A DNA stretch of 64,000 nucleotides from a virus: the IMG/VR virus record IMGVR_UViG_3300035696_000035, positions 1 through 64,000 of that record. One strand, given 5' to 3'. Below, piece by piece: positions 5,211 to 58,884 of this stretch. How positions within the stretch are numbered: the stretch's first letter is position 1; each line of letters opens with the position of its first letter. The notes under the pieces are model-generated. The model worked only from the letters and a program-made list of their open reading frames with translations, ran no database searches and was not told where the DNA came from. The position numbers were made by a program, and so were the translations under genes.

Positions 5211-6101
5211 ATGACTGTCGTCTTCGTCTACTCCAAGAGGAACCAGGAAGCGACCACCCTGGCATACTTCGACTACGTGCTGGCCGCGATGCAGGCCAAC
5301 GGCGCCCTGGTGCTGGAGGAGTCGAGGTTCATGGCGTCAGGCAAGGACATGCTGGTCCCACACGGTGACCGCCTCGTCAACTTCTACTGTGACAACCCAG
5401 CTGCGGTGTGGCAGCGGTGCCTGCCCCAGTTCAGATGGAACTACGCCATCGATGAGATCGCTCAACCCGACGGACGAGCCTACGCCACCAAGATCAAGCA
5501 GTGCAAGGAGAACGACTGCACCAAGATGGTCGTTACCTACATGTCACCCCGACACCTGCTCAACCTGCGCCAGGCGGGCATCTCCTACGTCGGCATGCCG
5601 TGCTGTCCCCCGAGGATCCGCACCCGTGTCTCCAAGCCCCGTGCCGTCGCCGCCTTTGGTTCCTACCACCCGACGACGTACCCTGAACGGACCCGCATCA
5701 AGGAAGCGTTGGTCAGGTCGTTTGGAGCGCAGCACGTCCATGAACACCTGAACCCACCCGCCACGGGGGAACGGTTCTACGAAGCGTTGGACGGTTACCA
5801 GATGGGCATCGTCGACCGTGCTGGCTTCCGCGACCGCTTCGTCAACAAGTACGTCGAGTTCGGGGCCTCACATGTGCTGCCCATCGGCGACTGCCCCAGC
5901 TACATGCCCCGTGACATGCGGGAAGCGATGGTCAACACCGAGGGCAAGAACGCCAAGTGGATCATCAGCGAGGTCAACCGCTTGCTGCACACACCACAGG
6001 AACTGATGCTACGCCAGGAGAACTACACTGAGGCGGTGTCGAAGAACTTCAACCTGCTGCAACACGCTGGCCGCGTTGTCCAGACGATCACGGCAGCCTG
6101 A
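5211..6101 (+). CDS. hypothetical protein, possible glycosyltransferase (CgeB/GT1-like C-terminus)
   Basis: 296-aa ORF; RFYEALDGYQMGIVD resembles GT1 E-x7-E region; weak. Confidence 0.4.
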   Translation: MTVVFVYSKRNQEATTLAYFDYVLAAMQANGALVLEESRFMASGKDMLVPHGDRLVNFYCDNPAAVWQRCLPQFRWNYAIDEIAQPDGRAYATKIKQCKENDCTKMVVTYMSPRHLLNLRQAGISYVGMPCCPPRIRTRVSKPRAVAAFGSYHPTTYPERTRIKEALVRSFGAQHVHEHLNPPATGERFYEALDGYQMGIVDRAGFRDRFVNKYVEFGASHVLPIGDCPSYMPRDMREAMVNTEGKNAKWIISEVNRLLHTPQELMLRQENYTEAVSKNFNLLQHAGRVVQTITAA

Positions 6102-6852
6102 TACCGATGAGCTCGTCGCAGCGGTTGTAGAAGTCGCTGCTGAATGGGACACCACGGAACGGGTTCTTCCGGGACCTGCCCTGGTGGAGGACGAAGGGCG
6201 TGCCGTCGGGCAGGTGCCATTCTTCGTACGAGGTCGGGAACGCCGCCAACGCCTTGCGACACTTGGGGTCGTCGATGTTCTCGAAGGCAAGGGACGTCAG
6301 GCCGTTGTCACGGAGGAAGATCGGGAAGTTCCAGCACGCGTCCTGCAACACCCGGTAGTCAGCGGGCAGCCCATACAGGTCCTGTAGTTCAGGAGTGTTG
6401 GTCATCAGGGGTTGGGTTGGGTTGCACCTCGCCGGTTCGTACAAGTGCCAGGGCTTCCCTGGTTTCAGCGCCATCCACTCGACGTTGGGCTTGCCCTTGT
6501 ACGTCTGGTACCTGCTGAAGCCCGTCTGCTTGGTGCCGATCCTCTGGTACGCGGTGCCCACGCAGTCGTAGGTCTCCAACATCTGTTTCAGTGCGATGTC
6601 CCAGTCCGCCATCACCACGACGGTGTCGCTGTCGCAGACCACATGGATTGCCTCGGGTTCCTTCTGCATCGACTGGAACGCTTCCTTCACGGCTCGGCAG
6701 TGGTTGTCTGCGGGTTCAGGCGGGTTCTTGGGAACGATGTGCTTCTCAAGCCGCAACGCTTCCTTATCAGCAGCAAGACGTTGCATCGCTCCGAAGCAGT
6801 ACCCCGCGTATGACCCGGTGCCTTGTCCTGTCGGAATGTGGACGACTATCAT
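6088..6852 (-). CDS. hypothetical protein, possible GT-A fold glycosyltransferase
   Basis: 254-aa ORF; HVVCDSDTVVV DxD-like motif after N-terminal beta-alpha-beta (MIVVHIPTGQG). Confidence 0.4.
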   Translation of the reverse strand: MIVVHIPTGQGTGSYAGYCFGAMQRLAADKEALRLEKHIVPKNPPEPADNHCRAVKEAFQSMQKEPEAIHVVCDSDTVVVMADWDIALKQMLETYDCVGTAYQRIGTKQTGFSRYQTYKGKPNVEWMALKPGKPWHLYEPARCNPTQPLMTNTPELQDLYGLPADYRVLQDACWNFPIFLRDNGLTSLAFENIDDPKCRKALAAFPTSYEEWHLPDGTPFVLHQGRSRKNPFRGVPFSSDFYNRCDELIGIRLP

Positions 6853-32930: not shown

Positions 32931-33188
32931 TTGGAGGTGAGTGCCCCTGACTTGCTGCCTGGAGACCTCATCAGGATCACGGGCGTCTTCAACGTGTCAG
33001 GAAGCCCCGTCCTCGCCAAGGGCCAGGAAGCGTTGGTGATCTCAACGCCTGGCGTTTTTCCTGACCAACGAGAGGCGTTGCTCCTTACAGACGGTCGTTT
33101 GGTCACCATCGCTGACTGGTGGCTGCGAGCGAACTGCGACGTGTTGAACGACCCCACACCTGGTCGCTCCCGGCCAGGCCACGTCTGA
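32931..33188 (+). CDS. family-A paralog
   Basis: LLPGDLIRITG..ALVIST.. Confidence 0.45.
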   Translation: MEVSAPDLLPGDLIRITGVFNVSGSPVLAKGQEALVISTPGVFPDQREALLLTDGRLVTIADWWLRANCDVLNDPTPGRSRPGHV

Positions 33189-33199
33189 TAGGTACTTGC

Positions 33200-33988
33200 A
33201 TGCCTGGTCCTTTCGCTGCCTTCACCATCACACGCAACGAAGCTCTGTTCTTGCCGCTATGGTGCCAGTACTACTCGACGGTGTTCGGCGAAGAGAATTG
33301 CTACATCATCGACAACGACACCACCGACGGATCAGTGGAGACAGTCAAGCAACGATTCCCGAGCATCAACGTCGAGCAGCAACACCGTGAAGCGGAACAC
33401 GACACCCGGTGGTTGCTTGAGGTGGTCCAGCGGAAGCAACGTCAACTGTTGGCATCACACAAGGTCGTTGTCTTTGCGGAAACTGATGAGTTCCTGTTGG
33501 CAAAGCCAGGAGGCAAGTACAAGGACCTCCATGATGTGTGTGAACAGTTGTTGGTTGATCCTCACCGCAACTGGATCCAAGCTCAAGGTTGGCAGTGCAT
33601 GCAAGCACCTGACGAGCCAGCGATCACTGTGGTGAGGGGCGAGCCGGCGTTGAAGGACCGAGCAACCGTCCAACAGCACGAACAGTACTGCAAGACGCTG
33701 GTCAGCAAGGTCCCGTTGTCATGGGTCGGAGGCTTTCACTGGCGAGACATCGGGAATGGCCGAGGCGACAAGAACCCCAGCTCCATCGACTCTGACTTGG
33801 CATTGTTGCACCTGTGGACGTTGGATGCTGAGGCGTTCATGGAACGTCGTCGTAACAGGATGCAGAAGTGGGGCCAACTCGAGAAGTGGCCCGACATGTG
33901 GACGATGTTCAAGGATCAAGAGAACAGCTGCAGGCTGCATGCATCTATGCCTACTCCCGAGGAGTGGAGAGAGCTGTTGGTCTGGTGA
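33200..33988 (+). CDS. putative glycosyltransferase (GT-A fold; paralog of 35778..36569)
   Basis: Trimmed to MPGPFAAFTITRNE; IDNDTTDGSVE DxD-type motif; shares AFTITRNE/TTDGSVE/DLALLH blocks with 35778..36569. Confidence 0.55.
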   Translation: MPGPFAAFTITRNEALFLPLWCQYYSTVFGEENCYIIDNDTTDGSVETVKQRFPSINVEQQHREAEHDTRWLLEVVQRKQRQLLASHKVVVFAETDEFLLAKPGGKYKDLHDVCEQLLVDPHRNWIQAQGWQCMQAPDEPAITVVRGEPALKDRATVQQHEQYCKTLVSKVPLSWVGGFHWRDIGNGRGDKNPSSIDSDLALLHLWTLDAEAFMERRRNRMQKWGQLEKWPDMWTMFKDQENSCRLHASMPTPEEWRELLVW

Positions 33989-35091
33989 TGCTGCCGTACG
34001 ATTACCTCGTCGTCGGTGCGGGTCTTTTCGGAGCCACCTTTGCTTGGCATGCCGTCCAGCGCGGCAAGCGGGTGCTGGTCATCGACAAGCGAGATCACAT
34101 CGCCGGCAACGTCTACACCAAGCAACAGGAAGGCATCCACGTCCACACCTACGGCCCTCACATCTTCCACACCAGCGACCATGAGGTCTGGGCCTTCGTC
34201 AACAAGTTTGCCAGCTTCCACCGCTACGTCCACCACGTCAAGGCCCGCAACGGTGACCGGGTCTTCTCGTTGCCCATCAACCTGATGACAATGTACCAGT
34301 TGTGGGGCGTCACCAGCCCGAGTGAGGCCGAGGCCAAGCTCGCTGCGGTGCGGGTCCCGTGCGATCGCCCGCAGAACATGGAGGACTGGGCGCTGTCCCA
34401 GGTCGGGCCCGAGCTGTACGAGCTGCTGTTCAAGGGCTACACCACCAAGCAGTGGGGGCACCCGCCCAACGAGCTGCCCGCTTCGATCCTGAAGCGGCTA
34501 CCCATCCGCCTGTCATGGGACGACGACTACTTCACCGACACCTGGCAGGGGATTCCCGCCGGGGGCTACACCCGGATTGTCGAGCAGCTGCTGGAGGGCT
34601 CAGAAGTCCGCCTGCGGGTCGATTACCTGGCCGACAGGCAAGCGCTAGACGCCCTGGCACCGACGGTGGTCTACACCGGTCCCATCGACGCGTACTTCGG
34701 CTACTCACTCGGGCAGCTGGAATACCGGACGATGTCGTTCGACACTCAAGTGCTCGACGTACCCGACTACCAGGGCTGCGCCCAGCTGAACTGGACGGGC
34801 ACGGAAGTGCCGTGGACCCGCACCGTCGAGCACAAGCACTTCGAGATGGTCAACGTGCCCAAGACTGTCGTCACCTGGGAGACGCCCTCAGCTTGGCAAC
34901 CCGGTAGCGAACCCTACTACCCGGTGTGTGATGCCAAGAACAACGCGCTCTACGTTGAGTACAAGCAGATGGCTGACCAGCTCCCAAACGTCAGGTTCGG
35001 CGGGCGCCTCGGCACCTACAAGTACTACGACATGCACCAGGTCATCGCCCAAGCATTGCACATGTGCCGAAAGGAGGGTCTGCTTGCCTGA
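33988..35091 (+). CDS. glf: UDP-galactopyranose mutase
   Basis: Start in TGATG overlap; YDYLVVGAGLFGA FAD motif; near-colinear similarity to bacterial Glf (HIFHT, KQWG, GIPAGGYT, YTGPIDAYF, EHKHF, YYPVNDAKN, GRLGTYKYYDMHQVI). Confidence 0.85.
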   Translation: MLPYDYLVVGAGLFGATFAWHAVQRGKRVLVIDKRDHIAGNVYTKQQEGIHVHTYGPHIFHTSDHEVWAFVNKFASFHRYVHHVKARNGDRVFSLPINLMTMYQLWGVTSPSEAEAKLAAVRVPCDRPQNMEDWALSQVGPELYELLFKGYTTKQWGHPPNELPASILKRLPIRLSWDDDYFTDTWQGIPAGGYTRIVEQLLEGSEVRLRVDYLADRQALDALAPTVVYTGPIDAYFGYSLGQLEYRTMSFDTQVLDVPDYQGCAQLNWTGTEVPWTRTVEHKHFEMVNVPKTVVTWETPSAWQPGSEPYYPVCDAKNNALYVEYKQMADQLPNVRFGGRLGTYKYYDMHQVIAQALHMCRKEGLLA

Positions 35092-35788
35092 CATCATTGC
35101 ATCGTTCCTGCTGCCGACCCGGGGTCGTCCCGATCGTCTAGTCCAGAGCATCCAATCGATTCACACTCGTAACGGCAGCATCAAGCGTTGGGATGACACC
35201 GACATCCCGAACTACGAGATCCTGATCCGGGCAGACGTTGATGACAAGCCGACGTGCGACCTGGTCAAGCCATGGGTCAACGACATCTATTGCCGGGTCA
35301 CCCTCGGACCCAGGCACCGCGGCTACCTCGACCTGCACCTGATGGTGAACCAGCTCGCGGTCCGTGCTCGAGGCGAGTTCCTGGTGTTGTGGAACGACGA
35401 TGCCCTGATGCAGACGGAAAACTGGGACGACGTGTTGAAGCGACACCTTGCTGACCCGCCACGCATCTACCATCCCACCTCAGCCGGGACCAACCGCAAC
35501 ATCTTCCCGATCGTCAGGCGTAGCATCTACGGAGCTATGGGCCGCTTCAGCGAGAGCGCTCTCAACGACTTCTACGTGTGGACGCTGGCCAAGCGGTTGG
35601 GCATCAACACCCACATTGACATCGACATCAAGCACGACCATCCTCAGGTCGGCGGCACCAACATCGACCAGACCTACCTCGATGCAGCCGCCGCATGTGG
35701 TATCGTCAAGCACGACGACAAGGATCCTCGGATCCTAGCGTGCCTGGCTGAGGACGAGGCCAAGATCCGAACGTTGCTCAATAGGTGA
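35085..35788 (+). CDS. family-2 glycosyltransferase
   Basis: TTG start after GAAAGGAGGG RBS; LLPTRGRPDRL (GT2 PTYNR-type) and ADVDDK DxD. Confidence 0.6.
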
Positions 35789-36569
35789 GCAGCGACCGCC
35801 AGTGATCGGGCACCGGCGTCTCAGGACCGACGGCATGGGGATCACCCTCGTTGACCCATGGGGCTTTGTGAGTCCTGAAGTACTCGCTTGCGGTCGCCTT
35901 GTTGAGGTCCAGGAACCTGCCGCTGTGTCGATTCACGTACTCGTCAATGTCAACGCGCCAGGCATGAAGCAACGCTAGATCGACATCGATGGGTTCATCA
36001 ACCTGCTTGACTCCGGCGTCGAAGAAGTTGTGGAAGCCCTTCTGGTACACTATCGGTTTCTTGGTGATCAACGTTTTGTCGTACGTTGGCAGCAACCACA
36101 TCGAATTGCGAGCTTCCAGGAGGCTCGCGCCGGGCTCGCGTCTGACAGCCGGCTCCGTATCGATCTGCTGGACAACGTTCCAACCCTGAGCCCGACGCCT
36201 TGTCGAGGTTGGATCATCATTGAACTGTTGACAGTAGTCGAGCAGACCTGCATACCTGGTGCTCGGGATCAGGTACTCGTCGGTCTCGCTGAAGACAACA
36301 ACGCGGTAACGTTGAAGCAGCTCACGTTGGAACGCTTCGACAGTCCCCTTCAAGAACAGGCTGACATGCGCCACAGGTGAGTCTCGAAAGACGAAGTTGA
36401 CGGTTGGGTGCAACGCTCTTGCCTCTTCAACGCTGCCGTCCGTCGTCGAGTTGTTGATGACATAGACGTCCTCTGGCGGGAAGACCTTCGTCATGTAGTT
36501 GAGCCACACCCGGAGAAACAGGGGCTCGTTGCGCGTGATGGTGAAGGCAGCGAAGTCGTGTTCTCCCAT
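35778..36569 (-). CDS. putative glycosyltransferase (paralog of 33200..33988)
   Basis: AFTITRNEPLFL, INNSTTDGSVEE, DLALLHAW conserved blocks. Confidence 0.55.
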   Translation of the reverse strand: MGEHDFAAFTITRNEPLFLRVWLNYMTKVFPPEDVYVINNSTTDGSVEEARALHPTVNFVFRDSPVAHVSLFLKGTVEAFQRELLQRYRVVVFSETDEYLIPSTRYAGLLDYCQQFNDDPTSTRRRAQGWNVVQQIDTEPAVRREPGASLLEARNSMWLLPTYDKTLITKKPIVYQKGFHNFFDAGVKQVDEPIDVDLALLHAWRVDIDEYVNRHSGRFLDLNKATASEYFRTHKAPWVNEGDPHAVGPETPVPDHWRSLLTY

Positions 36570-49706: not shown

Positions 49707-50603
49707 TCAGTGTTGGACGCTCGGGACCCAGTGCGTAGTGCGACCATCCTTGGTCTCTTCCTTGACGACTGGGTTGCCAATCGGGTCCGTCTGATTACCA
49801 TACACCGCGAAGCGGCGTTGCATGCCACCTTTTGAGCCGTCAACGTTGCGGTAGGTGCTGATGGTCGCACCACCCGTGTTGTAGCTCGCCTTCATCACGT
49901 TGACGATCTGCTGGCGGAGCCGCTCGATCTCCTGGTTCGACAGCTCGCAGACGATGCGATGTGGGCTGAGCTCGGCTAGGTACAGGGCCTCGGCCTTGAC
50001 GTAGTTGCCAACCCCGCTGACGCACGACTGGTCCATCAGTGCCTCGGCCAACGTTTTCTGGTTGCGGCGGTTGAGGGCGATCCGGAACTGTTGCTCGTTG
50101 GGCGGGTTATGTAGCATGTCTGGCCCGAGCGATGCCAGTTTTTCTTGGTGCAGCTCGTCGCTGTGGACGAACTTCAGGGTGCCGAAGTGCCGGTGGTCGT
50201 TGAAGTACAGGGCGGGTGGCTGGACGAAGTTGCCGGTCGCATCGAGGGGTGAGCCAGAGTCGTTGTAGTTGATTCCGAAGCCTGCGTGTTTGGTCTGCTC
50301 TGACGACCACTGGCCCGACATCCCGTATGTGATCCATAGGCGCCACGGTGGTTCGCTCCGTTCGGGTCCCACCAGCTTCCGTGGGAAGTCCATCGTCCAC
50401 CACATGAACTTGCCCTTGCAGTCGACCTCGGTCACCCGACAGGCACCCCGACCGCGAAGCTCGCCGAGGAACTCGGCGAAGCCCTCGGGTGGCCGCTGCA
50501 CGTACCGGCCCGTGGTGCCCACGAAGGCATTGACGATACGCTTGCCCACAAGCAAGCGGCACAGGTGGTCGGTGCTACGCCGGACCTCGGGACCCTCGGG
50601 CAT
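49707..50603 (-). CDS. Fpg/Nei-family DNA glycosylase (zincless-finger type)
   Basis: Diagnostic N-terminus MPEGPEV; H2TH region (SGVGNYVKAEALYLAEL); no C-terminal CxxC zinc-finger cysteines (NEIL1/Mimivirus-Nei-like). Confidence 0.8.
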   Translation of the reverse strand: MPEGPEVRRSTDHLCRLLVGKRIVNAFVGTTGRYVQRPPEGFAEFLGELRGRGACRVTEVDCKGKFMWWTMDFPRKLVGPERSEPPWRLWITYGMSGQWSSEQTKHAGFGINYNDSGSPLDATGNFVQPPALYFNDHRHFGTLKFVHSDELHQEKLASLGPDMLHNPPNEQQFRIALNRRNQKTLAEALMDQSCVSGVGNYVKAEALYLAELSPHRIVCELSNQEIERLRQQIVNVMKASYNTGGATISTYRNVDGSKGGMQRRFAVYGNQTDPIGNPVVKEETKDGRTTHWVPSVQH

Positions 50604-50683
50604 GACATCACCTTACCACAGGTGTGCGCCAGGGTACATGTACTTGTGCCCGAAACGTATAGCTATGTTCTAAGGGGTGTGTT
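50604..50683. promoter_or_regulatory. divergent intergenic region with two perfect palindromes
   Basis: GTACATGTAC (10 bp) and ATAGCTAT (8 bp) between Fpg/Nei (-) and protease (+) genes. Confidence 0.3.
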
Positions 50684-51544
50684 ATGAAGCGTCTGGCGGT
50701 CTGGGCCTTGGCAGTTACGTTGCCGGCCTGTTGTGTAGCAGCCAGGACGTCGACGGTGAACCCGTCAACACACCTGACTCTGGTCGAACAGCTTGAAGCA
50801 GAGTCACCTGCGTTGGTCTGGTTCAGCGATGGAGAAGGGCACCACACCTACGACACTGACAACGTTCCCAATGGCTACAACCTGGTGCCGTACTGTGCCT
50901 CAGTGTGGATCAGCCCCGATACGATCTTGACCGCTGAGCACTGCGTCGATGACATCGGTCGCCCGAACGAGAAGGCAGACACCAGCACCGATGACAACAC
51001 CGGTGACGACGATGATCCGACCCAGTTGCTGCTGCAACTCCTGGACCAACTACAGGCCCTGAAGGCACAGACGGTCGCTTGGACGCCGGTGGGTCAGGCT
51101 GTCCTGTACTCCAACCGTGAGGACATCGATCCCAAACACAAGGCGTACCACTCTGGCAGGGTCACCGCGGTCGACATGATCAATGACCTGGCTCTGATCA
51201 AGGCAGATGCTCCGGGCAACCACTTCGTTGCCCATCTTCGCCAGGGGACCATCCACGATGGTGAGGAGCTCCACGTTGTGGGAATGCCCGCCGGGTCTTG
51301 GTGGTCCTACAGTCACAACTACGTATCGGGTGAAAGGCCCGAGTACTGGGACGGCAAGCACACTCGCCCGATCATGCAGACATCGGGTCCCCTCTTCTTC
51401 GGCAACTCCGGCGGTGGAGCCTTCGACACTGATGGCAATCTGGTCGGCATCGCTGACGCCATCAGCAGGGTCCCATCAACGGGCTTCTTCATTCCTCGGG
51501 ACGTCATCCAGGGTTTCCTCACCGCCAACGGCTTCAAGCGTTGA
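50684..51544 (+). CDS. secreted trypsin-like (S1) serine protease
   Basis: Signal peptide MKRLAVWALAVTLPAC; His motif LTAEHCV, Asp (NDLALIK), Ser motif GNSGGGAFD. Confidence 0.7.
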   Translation: MKRLAVWALAVTLPACCVAARTSTVNPSTHLTLVEQLEAESPALVWFSDGEGHHTYDTDNVPNGYNLVPYCASVWISPDTILTAEHCVDDIGRPNEKADTSTDDNTGDDDDPTQLLLQLLDQLQALKAQTVAWTPVGQAVLYSNREDIDPKHKAYHSGRVTAVDMINDLALIKADAPGNHFVAHLRQGTIHDGEELHVVGMPAGSWWSYSHNYVSGERPEYWDGKHTRPIMQTSGPLFFGNSGGGAFDTDGNLVGIADAISRVPSTGFFIPRDVIQGFLTANGFKR

Positions 51545-51971
51545 CGGGCTGGTGCTGGACATACCAACGCCAGTAGTCGGTCAAGGCATGGTCCTTAGGG
51601 GCTTCGTCCCCGATGATGCCCTGGCAGAAGATCTCCCAAGACCGAGCACCGTACTCACCGATCCCGGGCAGGTCCCGGGCGTGTTGCCATGGTCCCGCCA
51701 GGTACAGGTGGGTCATCTTCATCATGTTGTCGGTGCGTCGGGTAGCGAAGCCCAGGCTACGACAGACGTCAGCGACAGCTAGCGGGTTGGCGTTGATGAA
51801 CGCCTGCGGCGTGGGCCACAGTCGCCTGAACTCAGGCAACACCCGCTCGACTTGCTTCCGGCTCGTCTGGTTCAGCATCATGCAGCTGATCAGGATCATC
51901 CACTCGTCCGGCCACAGGTCCTCCTGTAGCAACCCGAACGGGCTCCTGGGCGGCGTCCACCTTTGGTTCAT
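51534..51971 (-). CDS. HhH-GPD DNA glycosylase, MBD4/Mig-like
   Basis: LISCMMLNQTSRK, LPGIGEYGARSWEIFCQGII, HALTDYWRWYV align to MBD4 glycosylase domain (IATIFLNRTSGK, LHGIGKYGNDSYRIFCV, HKLNKYHDWLW); start uncertain because of overlap with 51832..52401. Confidence 0.55.
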   Translation of the reverse strand: MNQRWTPPRSPFGLLQEDLWPDEWMILISCMMLNQTSRKQVERVLPEFRRLWPTPQAFINANPLAVADVCRSLGFATRRTDNMMKMTHLYLAGPWQHARDLPGIGEYGARSWEIFCQGIIGDEAPKDHALTDYWRWYVQHQPVNA

Positions 51972-52401
51972 CGTTTGCCTCTCCCATCATGATCAACAGG
52001 CGGTGTTGCTCCTGGATGAGCTCACGTTGTTCGACGCGAGCGTCTTCCAGCGCTCGCAGTGCATCGTGTCTAGCCGACTCCATCACGTCACGGCTGTACT
52101 CAACCCGAGTGTTCATGGCGTTGTTTCGTAGGTTGCTGATCTGCTGGTCGAGCATCTTCCGTCTGTCCAACAGGACGTTCAGCGCCTGCTTCTTTGTGTC
52201 GAAGAGTTGCTGTTCAATCGTGATTGCGGGGCGCTCGGGTGGCGGGGACGCCAGCTCTGCCTGCTTCAGGTCGACCTCGGCCTTCTTGGTCGCGGCATGC
52301 TTCTTGGCGCCGTAGTGGTTACCGATCCACACCAAAGCGAGCAGCGTGCCACAGATCAGGTACAGCATCGTCATTGTCATCGGCCCACTCCGCACCAGCA
52401 C
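51832..52401 (-). CDS. membrane-anchored coiled-coil protein
   Basis: MTMTMLYLICGTLLALVWIG TM helix then coiled coil; 3' end overlaps glycosylase ORF. Confidence 0.35.
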   Translation of the reverse strand: MLVRSGPMTMTMLYLICGTLLALVWIGNHYGAKKHAATKKAEVDLKQAELASPPPERPAITIEQQLFDTKKQALNVLLDRRKMLDQQISNLRNNAMNTRVEYSRDVMESARHDALRALEDARVEQRELIQEQHRLLIMMGEANDEPKVDAAQEPVRVATGGPVAGRVDDPDQLHDAEPDEPEASRAGVA

Positions 52402-52622
52402 TGGTCTTCACCGCACCCCGGGCACGTTTCGTGCTTGAGGTCTTCAGCCTTGCATTCCTCGGGAGCGCTCCATTCTTCCTGGACGCCCCACACGTGGACA
52501 TGCCGCCCGTTCTTGTCCCAGATGACGATGAGGGTGCCATCAACGACAGCGTCGACGAGCCCGTAGGATCCCGGGCGGTCCTTGTGAGCGACTAGGTCTG
52601 CCATCCCGAAAGTTTCAGACAT
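52377..52622 (-). CDS. hypothetical protein (family-A-like core, C-terminal Cys cluster)
   Basis: Trimmed to MSETFGMADLVAHK; TLIVIWD..; CPGCGEDQCWCG. Confidence 0.3.
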   Translation of the reverse strand: MSETFGMADLVAHKDRPGSYGLVDAVVDGTLIVIWDKNGRHVHVWGVQEEWSAPEECKAEDLKHETCPGCGEDQCWCGVGR

Positions 52623-53700
52623 ACTTGAATCCGGTGAGCATCCGGCCCGCCGCCTCCAGGTCTTCTTGTGTCTTGACCCCGAAGTACCGCGCGTCTCGTG
52701 GCACTCTGACGAACTGGGTCGGGAACTCCTCAGTGAGCTGCTGCAGCAGCCGCTCATGCTGGATGACAAGGCGGTGACCCACCTGCTTGCGGGCTCGGTG
52801 CCAGCGCCACTCGATGGGTGCCTTCAGCGCTGCGATGTCGATGATCATTGAGTTGGTGTTGTGCCACCGAGCCTGGTCGGCGAAACCTGCGGGCAGCCGC
52901 CAGTCTTCAGCGATCTGGAGCTTGTTGTTGACGTATGCAACGACGCCGCCTTTGTCGCCGCGTTGGCGTTCAATCACCTCGCAAGTGACGGTAGCACCCT
53001 CTCGCTTGTGAAAGCCCAGCAACCCAGGGTGTGGTGAACCCATCACGTTGTCGACGTTGACGATGTAGGCGTACTTCACACCTGGGTTGTCAGCGATGAC
53101 CCCGCTCTCAACCAGCGCCGGGCCCACGTCACCGTGCCCCAGCGGGTACAGGTCGGGTACCCCGTGAGCGATCCACTCCAACCGGTTGTCCGGTGTCAAG
53201 CGGTACCCCTCGAACTGCTCGAAGATGTGGTAGCTCGCCTTGGGCGGTCGCGCCAGCTTCTCTAGGTGGAGAGCGATCGACTTCAGATTGCCGACTGACG
53301 TCATGATCCAGACGGGCATGTTGCCACCCTGCATCACCTTCCACGCCAGCATGCTGGTGTCGACTCCGGGGATCTTGGCGAAGACCTTGGGCATCCCCAT
53401 CCGGGTACCCGCACCACCTGCCAGCAGGACGAAGGCGACCTCGCCCCTGCTGATCATCTCTTCGCCGACCTGTTCGTCAGCAACGGTGATCTCTTCGTAG
53501 TTGTTGAGCTTGTCGTCGTCCGGAAAGTCCGGGTGGTACATCGCCGGATCGGCATCCTGACGAGTCGTCATCTTGACGAGCTCCTCGTCGGTGAGTGCAC
53601 CTGAACGGTGAACCCGAACCTGAAACTCGGGCAGGACCTGGGTCAGCTCTTCACGTAGTGAGCGAACGAATCCGGGTTCAGTCTTCACCAGCCACCTCTT
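52615..53700 (-). CDS. UTP--glucose-1-phosphate uridylyltransferase family (UGPase/UDP-sugar pyrophosphorylase type)
   Basis: LLAGGAGTRMG nucleotide-binding loop, PLGHGDV motif; true start uncertain (Arg/Ser-rich 5' extension of track ORF discarded). Confidence 0.65.
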   Translation of the reverse strand, partial: KRWLVKTEPGFVRSLREELTQVLPEFQVRVHRSGALTDEELVKMTTRQDADPAMYHPDFPDDDKLNNYEEITVADEQVGEEMISRGEVAFVLLAGGAGTRMGMPKVFAKIPGVDTSMLAWKVMQGGNMPVWIMTSVGNLKSIALHLEKLARPPKASYHIFEQFEGYRLTPDNRLEWIAHGVPDLYPLGHGDVGPALVESGVIADNPGVKYAYIVNVDNVMGSPHPGLLGFHKREGATVTCEVIERQRGDKGGVVAYVNNKLQIAEDWRLPAGFADQARWHNTNSMIIDIAALKAPIEWRWHRARKQVGHRLVIQHERLLQQLTEEFPTQFVRVPRDARYFGVKTQEDLEAAGRMLTGFKYV

Positions 53701-54187
53701 GTTCAAACCAACTCTCGTCGACGGGTATGTCAGGGAACGGCCACCAAGCGGGTGCGGCCGCCCTGGGTGCCCACTTGGCGAAACGTGCTTTCTCACCGAT
53801 GTAGTACGCGCGGTACGCCTTGACGGGGTCAGCATCGCGGTACTGCTCGGGCATCGCCTGAGCAAAGGGAGTCAGCCCCAGGTCAGGCAGGTCAGGTTGT
53901 TCGAGCGAGGCGATGATGTGTTCGGTCTTGTGGACCTTGCCGTAACGACGAGTGTACTCGTTGCAGAGCTCACAAGCGTGCCGCAACAACCACTCATAGT
54001 TCGACAACGAGGCACGGACCCACTTGCCACACGGGTGGTTGACGTGAGTGTGTTTGTATCGCGTCGTCCCGGGCGGGAATGCAGTGACCAACAGTTGGGC
54101 ACTCTCCAACAGCATCTTGACCACGTGCTTGTTGCACTGGTCTCGTGCTGCCTTGAGCGGGTCCTGGTCTAGGACGAAGATGTTCAT
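53678..54187 (-). CDS. hypothetical protein
   Basis: 169-aa ORF; MNIFVLDQDPLKAARDQCNKHVVKM N-terminus. Confidence 0.45.
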   Translation of the reverse strand: MNIFVLDQDPLKAARDQCNKHVVKMLLESAQLLVTAFPPGTTRYKHTHVNHPCGKWVRASLSNYEWLLRHACELCNEYTRRYGKVHKTEHIIASLEQPDLPDLGLTPFAQAMPEQYRDADPVKAYRAYYIGEKARFAKWAPRAAAPAWWPFPDIPVDESWFEQEVAGED

Positions 54188-54390
54188 CAGTTATTGAACT
54201 GTCGGTGCTTGACGAAGATCATGCAGCGTTCCTGATGCTTCTCGTTGAGAAGCGCCAGCGTTCGCTCCAGGTGACCCTTGGTGAAGATCAAGACGTAACC
54301 ATCGTCGACTGTTGCGACGGCCACACCTTCCTTGTCGGCCATGTCGACCAGGTCCTCGGGACCCAGGTCCTTCTTGACGGGTTCACTCAT
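54187..54390 (-). CDS. hypothetical small protein
   Basis: 67-aa ORF, coupled. Confidence 0.35.
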   Translation of the reverse strand: MSEPVKKDLGPEDLVDMADKEGVAVATVDDGYVLIFTKGHLERTLALLNEKHQERCMIFVKHRQFNN

Positions 54391-54590
54391 TTGTTACACA
54401 CGATTCGACACCGCTTGATCAGCTCCAGCGGAATGAAGCTGTTTTCTCGCCGCAGCTCTTCCTGCGTGACCTCTCCTGCCGCTAGCCGGCGGGCATCTTC
54501 ATCGCGCGAGGCCTGCTTCTCTGCGGCACGCTTCTTCGGGTCGAACGTCTCCATGGCACTAAGGTTACACCATGCGACGTCGTTTTTCAC
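54387..54590 (-). CDS. hypothetical small protein
   Basis: 67-aa ORF, ATGA-coupled. Confidence 0.35.
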   Translation of the reverse strand: MKNDVAWCNLSAMETFDPKKRAAEKQASRDEDARRLAAGEVTQEELRRENSFIPLELIKRCRIVCNK

Positions 54591-55150
54591 TCAGCGGCTG
54601 GCAACCCCAGTTTCGACCACAACTGCTTGTTGTACGAGCCAAAGGGACCATTGAACAGCACGCTGGGTTTCACCCACCGAATGACGCCGCTCTCAGGCGT
54701 GTTGATCTCGCCCTCGACCTCACAAGCGAATGTGTGAGTGACGAAGCCATCGTCCTCCTGGTGCGTGAAGACGTGCGATAGCTTGGTGGCAGTCAAACCC
54801 GTCTCCTCCTGGAGCTCACGGGCTGCTGCTTGTTCAGCGGTCTCGCCCGGGTCAACCTTGCCGCCAGGCAGACCAAACGCCGACGGATCGTTCTTGCGAG
54901 ACACCGCCAATACGTGACCATCGTTCGTCAGGATGAGGCAACACGCTGCTTGTTTCACGTCCTGCTCCGCTGTTTCTTCCTCGTTCTCTTCGTCATCGAG
55001 GATGTTGCTGCTGGCACCGGGCCTGACGCCCGCATCGCCCGTTGTCAGGCCAGTCGGGTGCAAGTTGCCGGCGACACCGTCCTTGCCGTACTGCTTGTTG
55101 TTGAATCCTACCAGGACCTCCTGGATGTATTCACGGAGCAGCTTGCTCAT
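54587..55150 (-). CDS. NUDIX hydrolase
   Basis: Nudix box GGKVDPGETAEQAAARELQEETGL; start trimmed to MSKLLREY. Confidence 0.7.
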   Translation of the reverse strand: MSKLLREYIQEVLVGFNNKQYGKDGVAGNLHPTGLTTGDAGVRPGASSNILDDEENEEETAEQDVKQAACCLILTNDGHVLAVSRKNDPSAFGLPGGKVDPGETAEQAAARELQEETGLTATKLSHVFTHQEDDGFVTHTFACEVEGEINTPESGVIRWVKPSVLFNGPFGSYNKQLWSKLGLPAAE

Positions 55151-55346
55151 GGTGCCTCGGTGGTGGAAGCGGGCAGGAAACGGTGCTGGTGCAGACGGGC
55201 GCGCTACCTGAGTCGTCAACGTCAGAGACGCCGGCAGCGGACGCGACTGGGTGTTTCTGTTGCCAGCAGCTGGCGAACAGGTTGTTCGCCATCAGCATCG
55301 CGAACAGGAACAGCACCAAGAAGAGGAGACCGCGGCTTCCGTTCAT
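55131..55346 (-). CDS. small membrane protein (possible holin-like)
   Basis: LLFLVLFLFAMLMANNLFA TM helix; ATGA-coupled; two genes downstream of endolysin. Confidence 0.35.
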   Translation of the reverse strand: MNGSRGLLFLVLFLFAMLMANNLFASCWQQKHPVASAAGVSDVDDSGSAPVCTSTVSCPLPPPRHHEQAAP

Positions 55347-55669
55347 CGGTCATACACCCTGAGGTCATGGAACCTCGTATCGAGTAGGTTGTACATCGTC
55401 TGCTTTGCAGTCAGGACGTTGCCGCGGTAGCGTCTAACGATGCCGGGCCACCGCTTCTGCACGAACCGAGTGACGATGGCCCTGTCCCTGGGAGACACTC
55501 GGCCTCCCAAGTCCTCGAACCACTCCTCGGCGAGCTTTCTGCCCGCCTCATCACCGGGCTGCTCATGGCCCTGCAGGCTGGTTCCCTTCAACAGCTTCAT
55601 CATGTGAGGGTCGACACGTAGCTCTGCCAGGGTCTCCTGGATGAATTGGCGGAGGACGTCTTCGTTCAT
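55343..55669 (-). CDS. hypothetical protein
   Basis: 108-aa ORF directly downstream of endolysin. Confidence 0.4.
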   Translation of the reverse strand: MNEDVLRQFIQETLAELRVDPHMMKLLKGTSLQGHEQPGDEAGRKLAEEWFEDLGGRVSPRDRAIVTRFVQKRWPGIVRRYRGNVLTAKQTMYNLLDTRFHDLRVYDR

Positions 55670-56910
55670 GACCTGGGCTTCAACAGGAACTTGACCAGCG
55701 CGACAATGGCGTTGATGATAGACTGCAGGGCACTGCCCCCAGCCGGCGCGGGTACAGGAGAGGGCGGCGTGGGGGCCGGAACAGGCGGCACCGGAGCGGG
55801 GGGCGGGTTGACGGGAGGCGGCTGGTCCAACGCCAGGACTGGGATGCCCAGCTTGTTGGGGTCAAGCCACTCGATCAGGGGACGGCCCAGGCTCGATAGC
55901 ACCGGACCGGTGCCCTGGGTGATCGCGTTGTTGGCGCGGCCACCGCCGCCGTGGTCAGCGTTCCCAGACGCGTCAACGGGACCCAGCAACCACTCAACGT
56001 GGTCGTCGTTGGTGCCCGGAGTGTTGTAGTGCATCAGCGCGCCGACAGGCGGGTTCTGGCCCTTGACGTACTTGGTCAGGGCACCGGTGTTGATGCCGAT
56101 CTGGCGGACCCAGGCGATGGCCATGCCCGACACGTAGGGCTTGTTGAGGAGCGGGTCACGGACTCCAGCAGCCGCCATGATGCCAAGAGCTGACGTGGCA
56201 CAGTTGGTTGAGATGGTCACGACTGACTCTGGGTTGTCGACCCCGCGGCCGACCAGGTTACCCAGGTCGGTGCGACGGTTGGTGAGGCTGCAACCCACGT
56301 AGGACTTGACAAGCCTGACGATCCTGTCAGCGGGCTTCTCACCCGGAACCAGCGGCTGCTGAGCAACGGGCACGTTGGAAGCCTCGGGAGCCGGGTGCAC
56401 CACGGGAGGAGGAACGGGGACCGGAGCTGGCGCGGGTGGGGGTGCTACGGGCTGCGTTGAACCCGCTGGCGTCAGGAACAACGCTCGTTCGGCCTGGCGT
56501 CGCTTGAGCAGGCCCTCATCGACCGTCAGCACGCCGTTGATCGTTGTCTTGTCCCACAGCAGCAACGCGTCAGCCGCGCCCTGGATGTCTCCGGTGTTGA
56601 GCTTGGTCCGGCACGACGACTGTTCCAGCGCGCCGCCCCCACAGTTGAACGTGAATGACACCAGAGCGTCAAACATGTTCTGCGTCATCGAGTGGGTGAT
56701 GTACTCGTTGACGGCGTTCTCAGCAGTACCGACATCGCCCGCTAGCAGGGCCAGGGCCTGTGCATGAGTGATGCCGTTGGGGAACGACTCGCCAGGTCTG
56801 ACCACGTGTCCGATGCCGATCGTGGGGATGCCTGCAACGTCCTTGTAAACGTGATCGACTTCACCTTCCCACGAGGCGATGAAGTTCAGGCCGTTCTGAG
56901 ACGTCTTCAT
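55666..56910 (-). CDS. endolysin: GH24 lysozyme domain plus Pro-rich linkers and a C-terminal Cys-containing domain
   Basis: N-terminal GLNFIASWEGEV..GIPTIGIGH (T4/lambda-type lysozyme); PPPAPAPVPVPPP linker; C-terminal domain with conserved Cys/His; second Pro-rich tail. Confidence 0.75.
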   Translation of the reverse strand: MKTSQNGLNFIASWEGEVDHVYKDVAGIPTIGIGHVVRPGESFPNGITHAQALALLAGDVGTAENAVNEYITHSMTQNMFDALVSFTFNCGGGALEQSSCRTKLNTGDIQGAADALLLWDKTTINGVLTVDEGLLKRRQAERALFLTPAGSTQPVAPPPAPAPVPVPPPVVHPAPEASNVPVAQQPLVPGEKPADRIVRLVKSYVGCSLTNRRTDLGNLVGRGVDNPESVVTISTNCATSALGIMAAAGVRDPLLNKPYVSGMAIAWVRQIGINTGALTKYVKGQNPPVGALMHYNTPGTNDDHVEWLLGPVDASGNADHGGGGRANNAITQGTGPVLSSLGRPLIEWLDPNKLGIPVLALDQPPPVNPPPAPVPPVPAPTPPSPVPAPAGGSALQSIINAIVALVKFLLKPRS

Positions 56911-56936
56911 GGCCTTAAGTAGGCCGGACGCGTCAC

Positions 56937-57194
56937 TCAGGCGGTCGGGCCGGGTGCTTGCTTGGACGACTTCAGCTTGGCGACGCTGGAGCGGATCATG
57001 GCCTCGATCTGGGTGGCCAGTTCCTTCATCTCGTTTTCGACCGCTGCGGGGTCGTACTGGCCCTTGAGCTTCTCACCGATCACACCGACCAACGACTGGA
57101 TCGAGTCCTTGACGCTGCCAGTGCCACCCGCGGGTGCCAGGGCTTCCTTGACGAGTTCCTTCAGGAGGCTGTTGGTGATGGGAGTGCGGGCCAT
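56937..57194 (-). CDS. hypothetical protein
   Basis: Trimmed to MARTPITNSLLKEL. Confidence 0.3.
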   Translation of the reverse strand: MARTPITNSLLKELVKEALAPAGGTGSVKDSIQSLVGVIGEKLKGQYDPAAVENEMKELATQIEAMIRSSVAKLKSSKQAPGPTA

Positions 57195-57210
57195 GCAGGT
57201 AACTAGGCCG

Positions 57211-57705: not shown

Positions 57706-57751
57706 GGCCCACCTCCCGTTGAGGGTAGGTAGGCCAAAGCGCTCTAGAAGT

Positions 57752-58600: not shown

Positions 58601-58884
58601 ATCAATACTCTCGGTGGCTTGTCGGGTTCCATGTCAGTGTGGCAGACTGGGCCTCGGCCCGACCTTGAACGGTTGTTGCGATCGAACGACACGAACAACA
58701 GGTACTTGCCGTCGACGACCTTCGAAGCGAGGAAGTGAGCGTCCTCTTGTGAGGTGATGTCGACCAGCACCCCGTCCTCGGTCACTTCTGCGATCCGGTG
58801 TGCTACAACACACGCGCCCCAAGTGACGACGTCGCCGACCTTGAAGTGCTTCTGCGCTTTCTTACGTTCGGCTCGTTTGCTCAC
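58597..58884 (-). CDS. hypothetical protein (family-A-like)
   Basis: FKVGDVVTWG..GVLVDIT..; ATGA-coupled. Confidence 0.4.
   Translation of the reverse strand: MSKRAERKKAQKHFKVGDVVTWGACVVAHRIAEVTEDGVLVDITSQEDAHFLASKVVDGKYLLFVSFDRNNRSRSGRGPVCHTDMEPDKPPRVLI

What the first reader, a model, noticed from the sequence alone, without database searches (positions are those of the whole stretch)
52615..53700. UDP-sugar pyrophosphorylase (UGPase type) supplies precursor for the Galf island; more putative GTs at 5211-6852
LLAGGAGTRMG and PLGHGDV motifs mark a UGPase/USP-family nucleotidyltransferase. Together with Glf and at least three or four GTs, and possibly the 5211 and 6088 genes, the element carries a near-complete sugar-activation-to-transfer route.

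The start codon is uncertain: the track ORF has an implausible Arg/Ser-rich 5' extension.
Basis: partly seen in the sequence, partly recalled or inferred. Interest (0 to 1): 0.5.

Follow-up and report, generated by a model that had tools for sequence, protein, structure and literature searches.

The report
Short UDP-glucose pyrophosphorylase in huge phage
The gene is a real, intact, unusually short UDP-sugar-making enzyme of the UDP-glucose pyrophosphorylase type, but it is a conserved core gene of an uncultured lineage of very large phages, sits among DNA-repair genes, and is kept even in relatives that lack the galactofuranose gene cassette it was thought to feed.

Summary
The minus-strand gene 52615-53688 matches Pfam UDPGP (82 bits, cutoff 22). 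Its catalytic motifs are intact and the predicted structure is confident and matches solved UGPase and UAP structures.

The Arg/Ser-rich 5' extension is an artefact. The start is GTG 53688, preceded by AAGAGG. This gives 357 aa, as in an identical database protein and in about 120 homologues of 349-366 aa.

The protein is a minimal catalytic core without the C-terminal beta-helix domain. It scores as UGPase > UAP >> USP.

A Glf cassette exists at 33119-36569 (Glf plus three GT2-like genes). ORF 6088-6852 folds as a GT-A glycosyltransferase. ORF 5211-6101 remains unassigned.

The UDPGP gene lies 16 kb from that cassette, in a block conserved in relatives down to 36% identity and from 38 to 62% GC: 5'-3' exonuclease, NUDIX, UDPGP, MBD4-like glycosylase, protease. 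A 216-kb relative keeps UDPGP, but the genes that flank the Glf cassette are directly adjacent there. No UDP-glucose 4-epimerase is in the window.

It most likely gives the phage its own UDP-hexose supply. Feeding Galf is at most a secondary role in one subclade. This is a new member of a known family, of modest interest.

The parts
52615..53688 (-). UDPGP-family nucleotidyltransferase gene, 357 aa, GTG start (minimal UGPase-type catalytic core)
   Evidence: Pfam PF01704 at 82 bits. 100% identical 357-aa database protein P0001. Homologue alignment fixes the N-terminus. AF2 model pLDDT 90.3, pTM 0.90. Foldseek against UGPase and UAP structures gives E about 1e-23.
53695..53700 (-). Shine-Dalgarno-like AAGAGG, 6 nt upstream of the GTG start. 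The start overlaps the end of the upstream gene by 11 nt.
   Evidence: Read directly from the sequence.
53395..53427 (-). Gly-rich nucleotide-binding loop LLAGGAGTRMG (residues 88-98), followed by P100-K101
   Evidence: A85, A90, G91 and K101 are invariant in alignment A1.
53125..53145 (-). PLGHGDV motif (residues 182-188)
   Evidence: P182, G184, G186 and D187 are invariant. It aligns to PPGHGDV of Arabidopsis UGPase.
53047..53058 (-). NVDN motif (residues 211-214)
   Evidence: N211 and N214 are invariant. It aligns to NSDN of plant UGPase.
52672..52674 (-). Codon of Lys339 in 'PRDARYFGVKTQEDL', 18 residues before the C-terminus
   Evidence: Nearly invariant. It aligns to 'PRSRFLPVKASSDL' of Arabidopsis UGPase. 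The protein ends where the beta-helix domain of canonical UGPases would begin.
54587..55219 (-). MutT-like NUDIX hydrolase, a conserved upstream neighbour
   Evidence: Pfam NUDIX 1.1e-22. NCBIfam MutT-like hits are below cutoff. Syntenic in relatives.
53678..54187 (-). Pyrimidine-dimer DNA glycosylase-like gene immediately upstream
   Evidence: Pfam Pyr_excise 1.8e-7. Present in the same position in L009-L012.
51534..51971 (-). Small HhH-GPD (MBD4-like) DNA glycosylase, the conserved downstream neighbour
   Evidence: Pfam HhH-GPD. It lies downstream of UDPGP in every locus that extends far enough. In L002 it overlaps the UDPGP gene by 4 nt.
33988..35091 (+). UDP-galactopyranose mutase (Glf), 367 aa
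   Evidence: Pfam GLF 8e-73. True length taken from the 100% identical P0130.
33119..33988 (+). GT2-like glycosyltransferase (GT_a), a paralogue of GT_c. Not seen at this position in relatives L101/L102.
   Evidence: Pfam Glyco_tranf_2_4 at 37.5 bits, cutoff 27.5. Paralogy and absence in relatives.
35084..35788 (+). GT2 glycosyltransferase (GT_b). TTG start with a GGAGG Shine-Dalgarno sequence; overlaps the Glf stop.
   Evidence: Pfam Glycos_transf_2 at 23.9 bits, cutoff 23.3. phrog_14945 glycosyltransferase 1.5e-15. Start read.
35778..36569 (-). GT2-like gene (GT_c)
   Evidence: Weak Pfam Glyco_tranf_2_4 hit, 21.3 bits, below cutoff. Conserved with Glf in L101/L102.
6088..6852 (-). GT-A-fold glycosyltransferase candidate with a DxD motif
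   Evidence: No Pfam, PHROG or NCBIfam family. Invariant C-D-S-D-T and H-Q motifs. AF2 model pLDDT 93.2. All top Foldseek matches are GT-A glycosyltransferases, E down to 7e-6, TM 0.35-0.48. Homologues lie near Glf in unrelated viral contigs L052 and L043.
5211..6101 (+). ORF of unknown function; the GT assignment is unproven
   Evidence: No hit in Pfam, PHROGs, NCBIfam or PDB sequences. One 30%-identical homologue lies in a Glf/UDP-glucose dehydrogenase/methyltransferase cluster, L035.

Best explanation
The gene encodes an active, minimal (357 aa) UTP:hexose-1-phosphate uridylyltransferase of the UDPGP family, most like UDP-glucose pyrophosphorylase. It makes a UDP-hexose, most likely UDP-glucose, from UTP and a sugar-1-phosphate inside the infected cell. 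This would make the phage's glycosyltransferases independent of the host's own enzyme for making UDP-glucose.

It is a vertically inherited core gene of an uncultured huge-phage lineage with genomes up to about 370 kb. It is co-transcribed with a DNA-repair and nucleotide-sanitation block. In the window's subclade the product could, after epimerisation by a host GalE, feed the accessory Glf-GT2 cassette and the GT-A protein at 6088-6852.

Shown: family, fold, intact motifs, start site, synteny, and the core-versus-accessory distribution. Inferred: catalytic activity, sugar identity, and the acceptor of the sugars.
For: Family and fold:
- Pfam UDPGP at 82 bits against a cutoff of 22.
- AF2 model with pLDDT 90, matching UGPase and UAP crystal structures at E about 1e-23 and TM 0.73-0.81.

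Subfamily:
- The family profile scores plant UGPase at 103 bits over the whole catalytic domain, other UGPases at 75-92 (trypanosomatid UGPases lower, about 42-51), UAP at 50-75 and USP at 24-32.

Motifs:
- The Gly-rich loop, PK, PxGHGD, NxDN, D-K-G-G, NTN and the terminal Lys are all present and conserved.

Distribution:
- 147 homologues of 349-366 aa, several on contigs of 250-370 kb, including IMG/VR UViG_3300005529_000001 of 369,475 bp.
- The synteny 5'-3' exonuclease, NUDIX, UDPGP, HhH-GPD, protease is kept from 72% down to 36% identity and from GC 0.38 to 0.62.

Possible consumers in the same genome:
- Glf, GT2-like genes and a GT-A gene.
- Glf lies on the same contigs as UDPGP in at least four close relatives, judged by shared contig lengths 369506, 41323, 50215 and 44544.
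Against: - No enzymatic test was possible, and sugar specificity cannot be read from sequence.
- Foldseek ranks UAP/AGX1 as high as UGPase, and some source annotations call homologues UDP-GlcNAc pyrophosphorylase.
- About 10% of full-length homologues have lost or deleted the Gly-rich loop, and two of these also carry H->N in PxGHGD. Catalysis may therefore be dispensable in some branches.
- The conserved neighbours are DNA-repair genes, not glycan genes.
- Distant relatives show no glycosyltransferase within 10 kb on either side.
- The consumer of the product is unknown in genomes that lack the Glf cassette.
Confidence: 0.6

Rival explanations
1. One reading: the enzyme exists specifically to supply the precursor for the Galf route (UDP-Glc or UDP-Gal, then Glf, then galactofuranosyltransferases), forming one functional island.
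For: Glf and two or three GT2-like genes are in the same element. UDPGP and Glf co-occur on the same contigs in close relatives.
Against: The gene is 16-17.5 kb from Glf, both here and in the 369-kb relative. UDPGP is conserved down to 36% identity in fixed synteny. The Glf-GT cassette, in contrast, is cleanly absent between the adjacent homologues of o36605 and o32479 in L107/L108, which keep UDPGP. No 4-epimerase, GalK or GalT is in the window. Similarity to USP, which could use Gal-1-P directly, is the weakest of the three subfamilies.
Confidence: 0.2
2. The enzyme is a UDP-N-acetylglucosamine (UAP/AGX-type) pyrophosphorylase rather than a UGPase.
For: The Foldseek top hit is human AGX1 and many UAP structures score E about 1e-23. 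JGI labels several homologues UDP-GlcNAc pyrophosphorylase.
Against: Sequence and profile scores favour UGPase, 103 versus at most 74.5 bits, and UAP alignments stop at profile position about 266. The motif is P-L-G-H-G-D as in UGPase and USP, not the G-N-G-G of UAP enzymes; this criterion is from my own knowledge of AGX1 and was not tested here. The D-K-G-G and N-T-N motifs align to the UGPase motifs.
Confidence: 0.1
3. The UDP-hexose is made for glycosylation of the phage's own DNA (base hypermodification). That would explain why the gene sits among nucleotide and DNA-repair genes and why it is a core gene.
For: The tight NUDIX-UDPGP-HhH-GPD arrangement is conserved. A published precedent proposes that a phage Glf supplies UDP-Galf for hexosylated 5-hydroxycytosine DNA in Rhizobium phage RL38J1 (PMC13326640).
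Against: No thymidylate-synthase-like hydroxylase or hydroxymethylase, and no recognisable DNA glycosyltransferase, was found in the 64-kb window. The best structural matches of the GT-A protein at 6088 include protein- and capsid-glycosylating enzymes. Conserved gene order in a phage core region need not reflect shared function.
Confidence: 0.12
4. The protein acts mainly in reverse or non-catalytically: it breaks down host UDP-sugars with pyrophosphate to recover UTP and starve envelope synthesis, or it has a structural or regulatory role.
For: About 10% of homologues have lost the Gly-rich loop while the rest of the protein stays conserved. The UDPGP reaction is freely reversible (established enzymology). 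A NUDIX hydrolase is adjacent.
Against: The window copy and about 90% of homologues keep every catalytic motif. There is no precedent that I know of.
Confidence: 0.08

Closest known systems
Eukaryotic-type UDP-glucose pyrophosphorylase (EC 2.7.7.9), e.g. Arabidopsis UGPase, PDB 1z90/2icx/2icy
   Same: It is the best sequence and profile match (E=1.5e-28, aligned across the whole catalytic domain). It shares the Gly-rich loop, PxGHGD, NxDN, KGG, NTN and the PVK lysine. The fold is the same, TM about 0.75.
   Different: Only 22-24% identical. The window protein is 357 aa against 469 aa and ends about 18 residues after the catalytic lysine, so the C-terminal beta-helix domain is missing. It is encoded by a virus of prokaryotes.
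Klosneuvirus KNV1 'UTP--glucose-1-phosphate uridylyltransferase' A0A1V0SLA1 (356 aa)
   Same: It is the closest viral structure in BFVD: TM 0.72/0.72, rmsd 2.9 Å, E=1.8e-22. It has the same short length class.
   Different: 22% identity. It comes from a giant virus of eukaryotes. It is uncharacterised, so it offers no functional information.
UDP-GlcNAc pyrophosphorylases UAP1/AGX1 (PDB 1jv1) and USPs (PDB 3oh0)
   Same: Same Pfam family and the same fold.
   Different: Lower profile scores: UAP 50-75 bits and USP 24-32 bits, against 103 for plant UGPase. The UAP signature G-N-G-G is replaced by G-H-G-D; this criterion is from memory.
Short bacterial UDPGP-family proteins (about 360-390 aa), e.g. 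P0313
   Same: They match positions about 70-354 of the phage profile at E about 1e-50 and belong to the same short class. P0313 lies in a clearly cellular gene context next to a UbiA prenyltransferase.
   Different: They lack the lineage-specific N-terminal region of about 70 residues. They are uncharacterised, and NCBIfam has no model for them.
Phage-encoded Glf and glycosyltransferase systems: Pootjesviridae RL38J1 DNA hexosylation (PMC13326640); mycobacteriophage virion glycosylation (Freeman et al. 2023, cited in PMC12619734)
   Same: A phage carries Glf and glycosyltransferases. Glf is common in viral contigs, with 417 IMG/VR loci.
   Different: Neither system is reported to include a UDPGP-family pyrophosphorylase. 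The acceptor in the present phage (DNA, virion protein or host envelope) is unknown.

Membership tests
Pfam PF01704 UDPGP (UDP-sugar pyrophosphorylase superfamily) | HMM score above the curated gathering threshold | tested here: met
   82 bits against 22, E=4.6e-23
Pfam PF01704 UDPGP | Gly-rich nucleotide-binding loop followed by P-K (L-x2-G-x-G-T-x-M-x(n)-P-K) | tested here: met
   LLAGGAGTRMGMPK, residues 88-101. Lost in about 10% of homologues but intact in the window copy.
Pfam PF01704 UDPGP | P-x-G-H-G-D and N-x-D-N motifs and the C-terminal catalytic Lys | tested here: met
   PLGHGD 182-187, NVDN 211-214 and K339 align to the plant UGPase motifs.
Pfam PF01704 UDPGP | Rossmann-like nucleotidyltransferase fold of UGPase and UAP crystal structures | tested here: met
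   AF2 pLDDT 90.3. Foldseek E=4e-24 to 1e-22, TMq 0.71-0.81.
Canonical eukaryotic UGPase architecture | C-terminal left-handed beta-helix domain of about 100 aa | tested here: not met
   The protein ends 18 residues after K339. The alignment to the 469-aa Arabidopsis enzyme stops at its residue about 370.
UGPase subfamily (EC 2.7.7.9), as against UAP or USP | Closer to characterised UGPases than to UAP or USP | tested here: met
   Profile scores are 103 (plant UGPase), at most 74.5 (UAP) and at most 32 bits (USP). A single-sequence search gives the same order. Foldseek does not discriminate.
UGPase subfamily (EC 2.7.7.9) | Catalyses UTP + Glc-1-P <-> UDP-Glc + PPi | not testable with these tools
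   Needs an enzyme assay or galU complementation.
Single functional 'Galf island' (sugar activation to transfer) | Physical clustering of the pyrophosphorylase with Glf and the glycosyltransferases | tested here: not met
   UDPGP is at 52615-53688 and the Glf cassette at 33119-36569, with about 16 kb of unrelated genes between them. The spacing is the same in the 369-kb relative.
Single functional 'Galf island' | Co-inheritance of UDPGP with the Glf cassette | tested here: not met
   L107/L108 keep UDPGP (L010/L011), but the cassette-flanking genes are adjacent with no Glf or GT genes between them.
Single functional 'Galf island' | Complete route to UDP-Galp (UDP-Glc 4-epimerase, or GalK/GalT/USP) | tested here: not met
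   None was found among the window ORFs scanned with Pfam. The rest of the genome was not available.
GT-A glycosyltransferase (ORF 6088-6852) | DxD motif and GT-A fold | tested here: met
   D74-S-D76 is invariant. All top Foldseek matches are GT-A enzymes, E=7e-6 to 1e-3, though TM is only 0.35-0.48. No Pfam family reaches threshold.
Glycosyltransferase (ORF 5211-6101) | Any sequence or fold similarity to a glycosyltransferase | tested here: inconclusive
   No hit in Pfam, PHROGs, NCBIfam or PDB sequences. One homologue lies in a glycan cluster.

The most novel reading that the evidence does not exclude
The tightly conserved NUDIX-UDPGP-MBD4-like-glycosylase unit could be a lineage-defining DNA-modification or protection module. 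In that reading the short UDPGP makes a nucleotide-sugar used to glycosylate the phage's DNA bases, and the neighbouring repair and sanitation enzymes are adapted to that modified DNA. Loop-less copies in some branches would be pseudo-enzymes kept for a non-catalytic role.
Probability: 0.1. Interest if true: 0.6.

Novelty: new member of a known kind. Interest (0 to 1): 0.3.

Why it matters
The result corrects a plausible but wrong pathway assignment. The pyrophosphorylase is an ancestral core gene of a diverse clade of uncultured phages with genomes up to about 370 kb (GC 38-62%, one contig from a sample labelled forest). The Galf cassette, in contrast, is a recent accessory insertion.

The result also documents a minimal form of the 'eukaryotic-type' UDPGP enzyme, without the beta-helix domain. 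This form is absent from reference phage collections but common in metagenomes.

If the enzyme is active, these phages control their own UDP-hexose supply. That bears on how large phages glycosylate virions, DNA or the host surface. None of this is surprising enough to rank highly without experiments.

Tried and rejected
- Nucleotide search of 50000-58000 against 50,697 phage records found no match. A tblastn search with the protein found only two weak (27-30% identity) hits in unannotated records. No cultured relative exists in that collection.
- tblastn searches with the chaperonin and the 5'-3' exonuclease found only distant matches, below 50% and about 30% identity. The lineage could not be named.
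- A scan of 185,579 species-representative genomes with two family patterns found no relative. The method depends on those patterns, so this is not proof of absence.
- Comparing contig names between the IMG/VR UDPGP and Glf scans was uninformative. The Glf scan kept only the best 80 of 417 loci and missed the known 369-kb relative.
- I extended a Glf-linked HhH-GPD/Fpg locus (L030) upstream. No UDPGP was there, so it is a different lineage.
- A search for ORF 5211 relatives in IMG/VR found nothing.
- The AFDB50 fold library was not available.
- NCBIfam has no model for this family; only sub-threshold MobA hits appeared.
- The promoter and terminator scan around the gene found nothing above the shuffle expectation.
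- No tRNA genes are in the window.
- Two literature searches for phage UGPase found nothing directly relevant. PMC12619734 describes a different jumbo-phage lineage.
Full report

Yes. The longest minus-strand ORF is 52615-53865, 416 aa. It matches Pfam PF01704 (UDPGP) with E=4.6e-23 and 82 bits against a gathering cutoff of 22, covering profile positions 28-341 of 413. The only other hit, MobA-like NTP_transf_3, is below its cutoff.

**2. Start codon**

- The upstream gene, a pyrimidine-dimer glycosylase-like ORF at 53678-54187, ends with TGA at 53678.
- In the UDPGP frame, a GTG at 53688 is preceded by AAGAGG at 53695-53700.
- A database protein that is 100% identical is 357 aa (P0001).
- All 17 aligned homologues (35-74% identity, 349-366 aa) start at the same 'M(K/R)..PGF' position.

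The gene is 52615-53688.

**3. What the protein is**

*Structure.* An AlphaFold2 model built on the 18-sequence alignment is confident: pLDDT 90.3, pTM 0.90. It matches solved UGPase and UDP-GlcNAc pyrophosphorylase structures at E of 4e-24 to 1e-22, with TM 0.71-0.81 normalised on the query.

*Subfamily.* A profile of the family against all PDB sequences gives this ranking:

| Target | Score (bits) | Note |
|---|---|---|
| Plant UGPase | 103 | Aligned over positions 45-350 |
| Fungal, animal and other UGPases | 75-92 | Trypanosomatid UGPases score lower, about 42-51 bits |
| UAP/AGX | 50-75 | Aligned only to position about 266 |
| USP | 24-32 | |

The single-sequence search gives the same order.

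*Motifs.* These residues are invariant or nearly invariant across the family: K101, P182/G184/G186/D187, N211/N214, E237, D245/G247/G248, E261, T278/N279 and K339. They align to the corresponding UGPase motifs: GGLGTxMG..PK, PPGHGD, NSDN, EV..D.KGG, LLE, FNTNN and PR.sRFlPVK. The G-H-G-D form is that of UGPase and USP, not the G-N-G-G of UAP enzymes. That last criterion comes from my own knowledge of AGX1 and was not tested here.

*Architecture.* The protein ends 18 residues after K339, where canonical UGPases of 470-530 aa continue into a C-terminal beta-helix domain. It is therefore a minimal catalytic core.

*How common the short form is.* A profile search of 1.84 billion cluster representatives finds 242 clusters at E<=1e-30 and 1435 at E<=1e-10. 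Most of the best 150 are 340-390 aa.
- One such protein (P0313, 392 aa) sits in an ordinary bacterial neighbourhood next to a UbiA prenyltransferase.
- The closest viral structure in BFVD is a 356-aa Klosneuvirus protein, TM 0.72.
- NCBIfam has no model for the family, and no record in the 50,697-record phage collection carries a close relative.

**4. What kind of element this is**

The window is about 61% GC. It is densely packed with short genes, many of which overlap by 1-4 nt at stop and start codons. It has no tRNA genes.

Genes identified in the window:
- phage lysozyme and endonuclease VII
- a 5'-3' exonuclease
- a chaperonin most similar to GroEL-annotated genes (about 48% identity) and AAA ATPases
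- Fpg/Nei, HhH-GPD and T4-endoV-like glycosylases, and a NUDIX hydrolase
- TANGO2, an ADP-ribosylglycohydrolase and a methionine-aminopeptidase-like protein
- an MVP/vault-like protein followed by an SPFH protein

Homologues of the UDPGP gene lie on metagenomic contigs of 250-370 kb and on IMG/VR viral contigs, including one of 369,475 bp. I read this as an uncultured huge-phage lineage. One relative comes from a contig whose record name includes 'forest'.

**5. Genomic context argues against a 'Galf island' role**

*Conserved position.* In every related locus retrieved, the gene sits in the same block: 5'-3' exonuclease ... (lysozyme) ... NUDIX ... (pyrimidine-dimer glycosylase) ... UDPGP - HhH-GPD - trypsin-like protease (opposite strand) - Fpg - VWA ... 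ADP-ribosylglycohydrolase - TANGO2 - AAA - chaperonin.
- This holds for relatives whose UDPGP is 72% identical and for relatives at only 36-38% identity, with locus GC from 0.38 to 0.62.
- In the distant relatives, UDPGP and the HhH-GPD gene overlap by 4 nt.
- The HhH-GPD protein resembles the MBD4 glycosylase domain and keeps the Asp of the 'P-x-D-H' catalytic motif. This is my reading of the sequence and rests on memory of MBD4.

*The Glf cassette is elsewhere.* It consists of:
- GT_a, 33119-33988 (Glyco_tranf_2_4, 37.5 bits)
- Glf, 33988-35091 (GLF, 8e-73; true length 367 aa)
- GT_b, 35084-35788 (GT2; phrog_14945 glycosyltransferase, 1.5e-15)
- GT_c, 35778-36569 on the minus strand (weak GT2_4 hit)

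. The cassette lies about 16 kb from UDPGP.

*The cassette is accessory.*
- The cassette Glf-GT_b-GT_c is in the same place in two relatives: L101 from the 369,506-bp contig and L102 from the contig labelled forest.
- In L107/L108 (contigs of 102,814 and 215,857 bp), UDPGP is 56% identical (L010/L011). There, the homologues of the flanking genes o36605 and o32479 lie about 290 bp apart with nothing between them.
- The cassette is therefore an accessory insertion, and UDPGP is retained without it.
- The window's Glf is about 58% identical to a very large number of bacterial Glf proteins, and Glf occurs in 417 IMG/VR loci. Both fit a frequently exchanged auxiliary gene.

*The route is incomplete.* A UGPase product (UDP-glucose) is not a Glf substrate. 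A UDP-glucose 4-epimerase is needed, and none is present among the window ORFs scanned, nor is a galactokinase or GalT. The route is thus not 'near-complete' within the window. It would depend on a host GalE, or on Gal-1-P promiscuity, for which the weak USP similarity gives no support.

**6. The two extra 'putative GTs'**

*ORF 6088-6852.*
- It has no Pfam, PHROG, NCBIfam or PDB-sequence hit.
- Its 14-member family has an invariant C-D-S-D-T (DxD) motif and a later H-Q.
- Its model is confident, pLDDT 93.2.
- Every top Foldseek match is a GT-A glycosyltransferase: COLGALT1 at 7e-6, STIV A197, the LH3 glycosyltransferase domain, Mimivirus R699 and PBCV-1 A64R. TM scores are modest, 0.35-0.48.
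- Homologues lie within 6 kb of Glf in two unrelated viral contigs, amid UDP-glucose dehydrogenase, ATP-grasp and acetyltransferase genes.

I accept it as a probable GT-A glycosyltransferase.

*ORF 5211-6101.* It gave no hit anywhere. Its only support is one 30%-identical homologue in a Glf/UDP-glucose dehydrogenase/methyltransferase cluster. It remains unassigned.

**7. Mechanism**

*Best-supported reading (confidence about 0.6).* The gene encodes an active UTP:hexose-1-phosphate uridylyltransferase, most likely making UDP-glucose. It gives the phage an autonomous UDP-hexose supply for its own glycosyltransferases. In the window's subclade these include the Glf cassette (via a host GalE) and the GT-A protein. 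Activity, sugar identity and acceptor are inferences.

*Rivals.*
- Dedicated Galf supply (0.2): weakened by section 5.
- UAP-type specificity (0.1).
- Supply for DNA base glycosylation (0.12). This is prompted by the conserved nucleotide and repair neighbourhood and by the published proposal that a phage Glf feeds hexosylated 5-hydroxycytosine DNA in Rhizobium phage RL38J1 (PMC13326640). It is unsupported by any hydroxylase or DNA glycosyltransferase in this window.
- A reverse or non-catalytic role (0.08). About 10% of full-length homologues have deleted or degenerate Gly-rich loops (P0036, P0040, P0041, P0045, P0049, P0066, P0081, P0086, P0094, P0103), and two of these also carry H->N in the PxGHGD motif.

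**8. Verdict**

- The family assignment and the start-codon suspicion are correct.
- The pathway interpretation is only partly supported.
- This is a new member of a known enzyme family, in a short form that also occurs in bacteria and in a giant virus.
- It is notable mainly as a conserved core gene of an uncultured huge-phage clade.
- Interest is modest, 0.3.

Noticed in passing
window 13020-19902 (+): A 1058-aa protein has Major Vault Protein shoulder and vault-repeat domains (MVP_shoulder 6.7e-29) and an N-terminal CxxC-rich region. It is followed by a 640-aa SPFH/Band-7 protein and an AAA ATPase. Bacterial MVP-like proteins have been discussed in bioRxiv 10.1101/872010, but I found no description of one in a phage.
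   Followed up: partly
window 49707-58600 (mostly minus strand): The region concentrates base-excision-repair and sanitation genes: Fpg/Nei (49707-50603), a small MBD4-like HhH-GPD (51534-51971), a T4-endoV-like pyrimidine-dimer glycosylase (53678-54187), a MutT-like NUDIX (54587-55219) and a 5'-3' exonuclease/FEN (57752-58600). The arrangement is conserved across the lineage.
   Followed up: partly
homologues P0036, P0040, P0041, P0045, P0049, P0066, P0081, P0086, P0094, P0103: About 10% of full-length UDPGP homologues have deleted or degenerate Gly-rich nucleotide-binding loops. P0040 and P0066 also have H->N in PxGHGD. P0040 was seen on 14 contigs, so this is not a one-off assembly error. 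These may be pseudo-enzymes.
   Followed up: partly
window 60118-60534 (-): A 138-aa single-domain EamA-type membrane protein (Pfam EamA 3.5e-17), with weak similarity to the ArnF undecaprenyl-phosphate-sugar flippase subunit. It could bear on whether the glycans are built on a lipid carrier.
   Followed up: no
window 39991-41631 (-) and 42268-47000 (-): A chaperonin about 48% identical to GroEL-annotated genes, followed by an AAA ATPase, a TANGO2-family protein (8.8e-28) and an ADP-ribosylglycohydrolase (4.8e-33). All are syntenic in relatives.
   Followed up: no
L002 6984-7994 and 15763-16755 (relatives at GC 0.45): Distant relatives carry a short (330 aa) adenylosuccinate-synthetase-family gene, in the size range of phage PurZ enzymes of 2-aminoadenine DNA, and a 336-aa glutamine-synthetase-like gene near the UDPGP block. 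No counterpart was seen in the window.
   Followed up: no
window 52377-52601 (-): A 74-aa ORF lies directly downstream of UDPGP and ends in a Cys-rich 'ETCPGCGEDQCWCG' segment. It overlaps the start of the next gene, a predicted membrane-anchored protein whose ORF is 51832-52401, through an ATGA. No family hit.
   Followed up: no
window 33119-33988 (+) versus 35778-36569 (-): GT_a and GT_c are paralogues: both hit the single GT_c-like gene of relatives at 37-38% and 57-61% identity. GT_a appears to be an extra copy specific to the window's genome.
   Followed up: partly
window 58881-59849 (-) and 20520-21263 (+): ORF 58881-59849 matches the PHROG 'transposase' family phrog_10081 (4e-23) and is conserved in relatives. 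ORF 20520-21263 is a Peptidase_M24, methionine-aminopeptidase-like protein (3.6e-51).
   Followed up: no
L104 7026-9179: A bacterial short UDPGP (392 aa) lies 6 nt downstream of a UbiA-family prenyltransferase in a cellular contig with MoxR, transglutaminase and Ser/Thr-kinase genes. This may be a clue to the cellular function of the short-form family.
   Followed up: no
L105 6011-7981: A 656-aa protein carries the UDPGP core at its C-terminus (residues 365-644) behind an unannotated N-terminal half. It lies next to a 3-methyladenine glycosylase (Adenine_glyco) and an NTP_transf_8 gene. This is a second instance of a UDPGP gene beside a DNA glycosylase.
   Followed up: no
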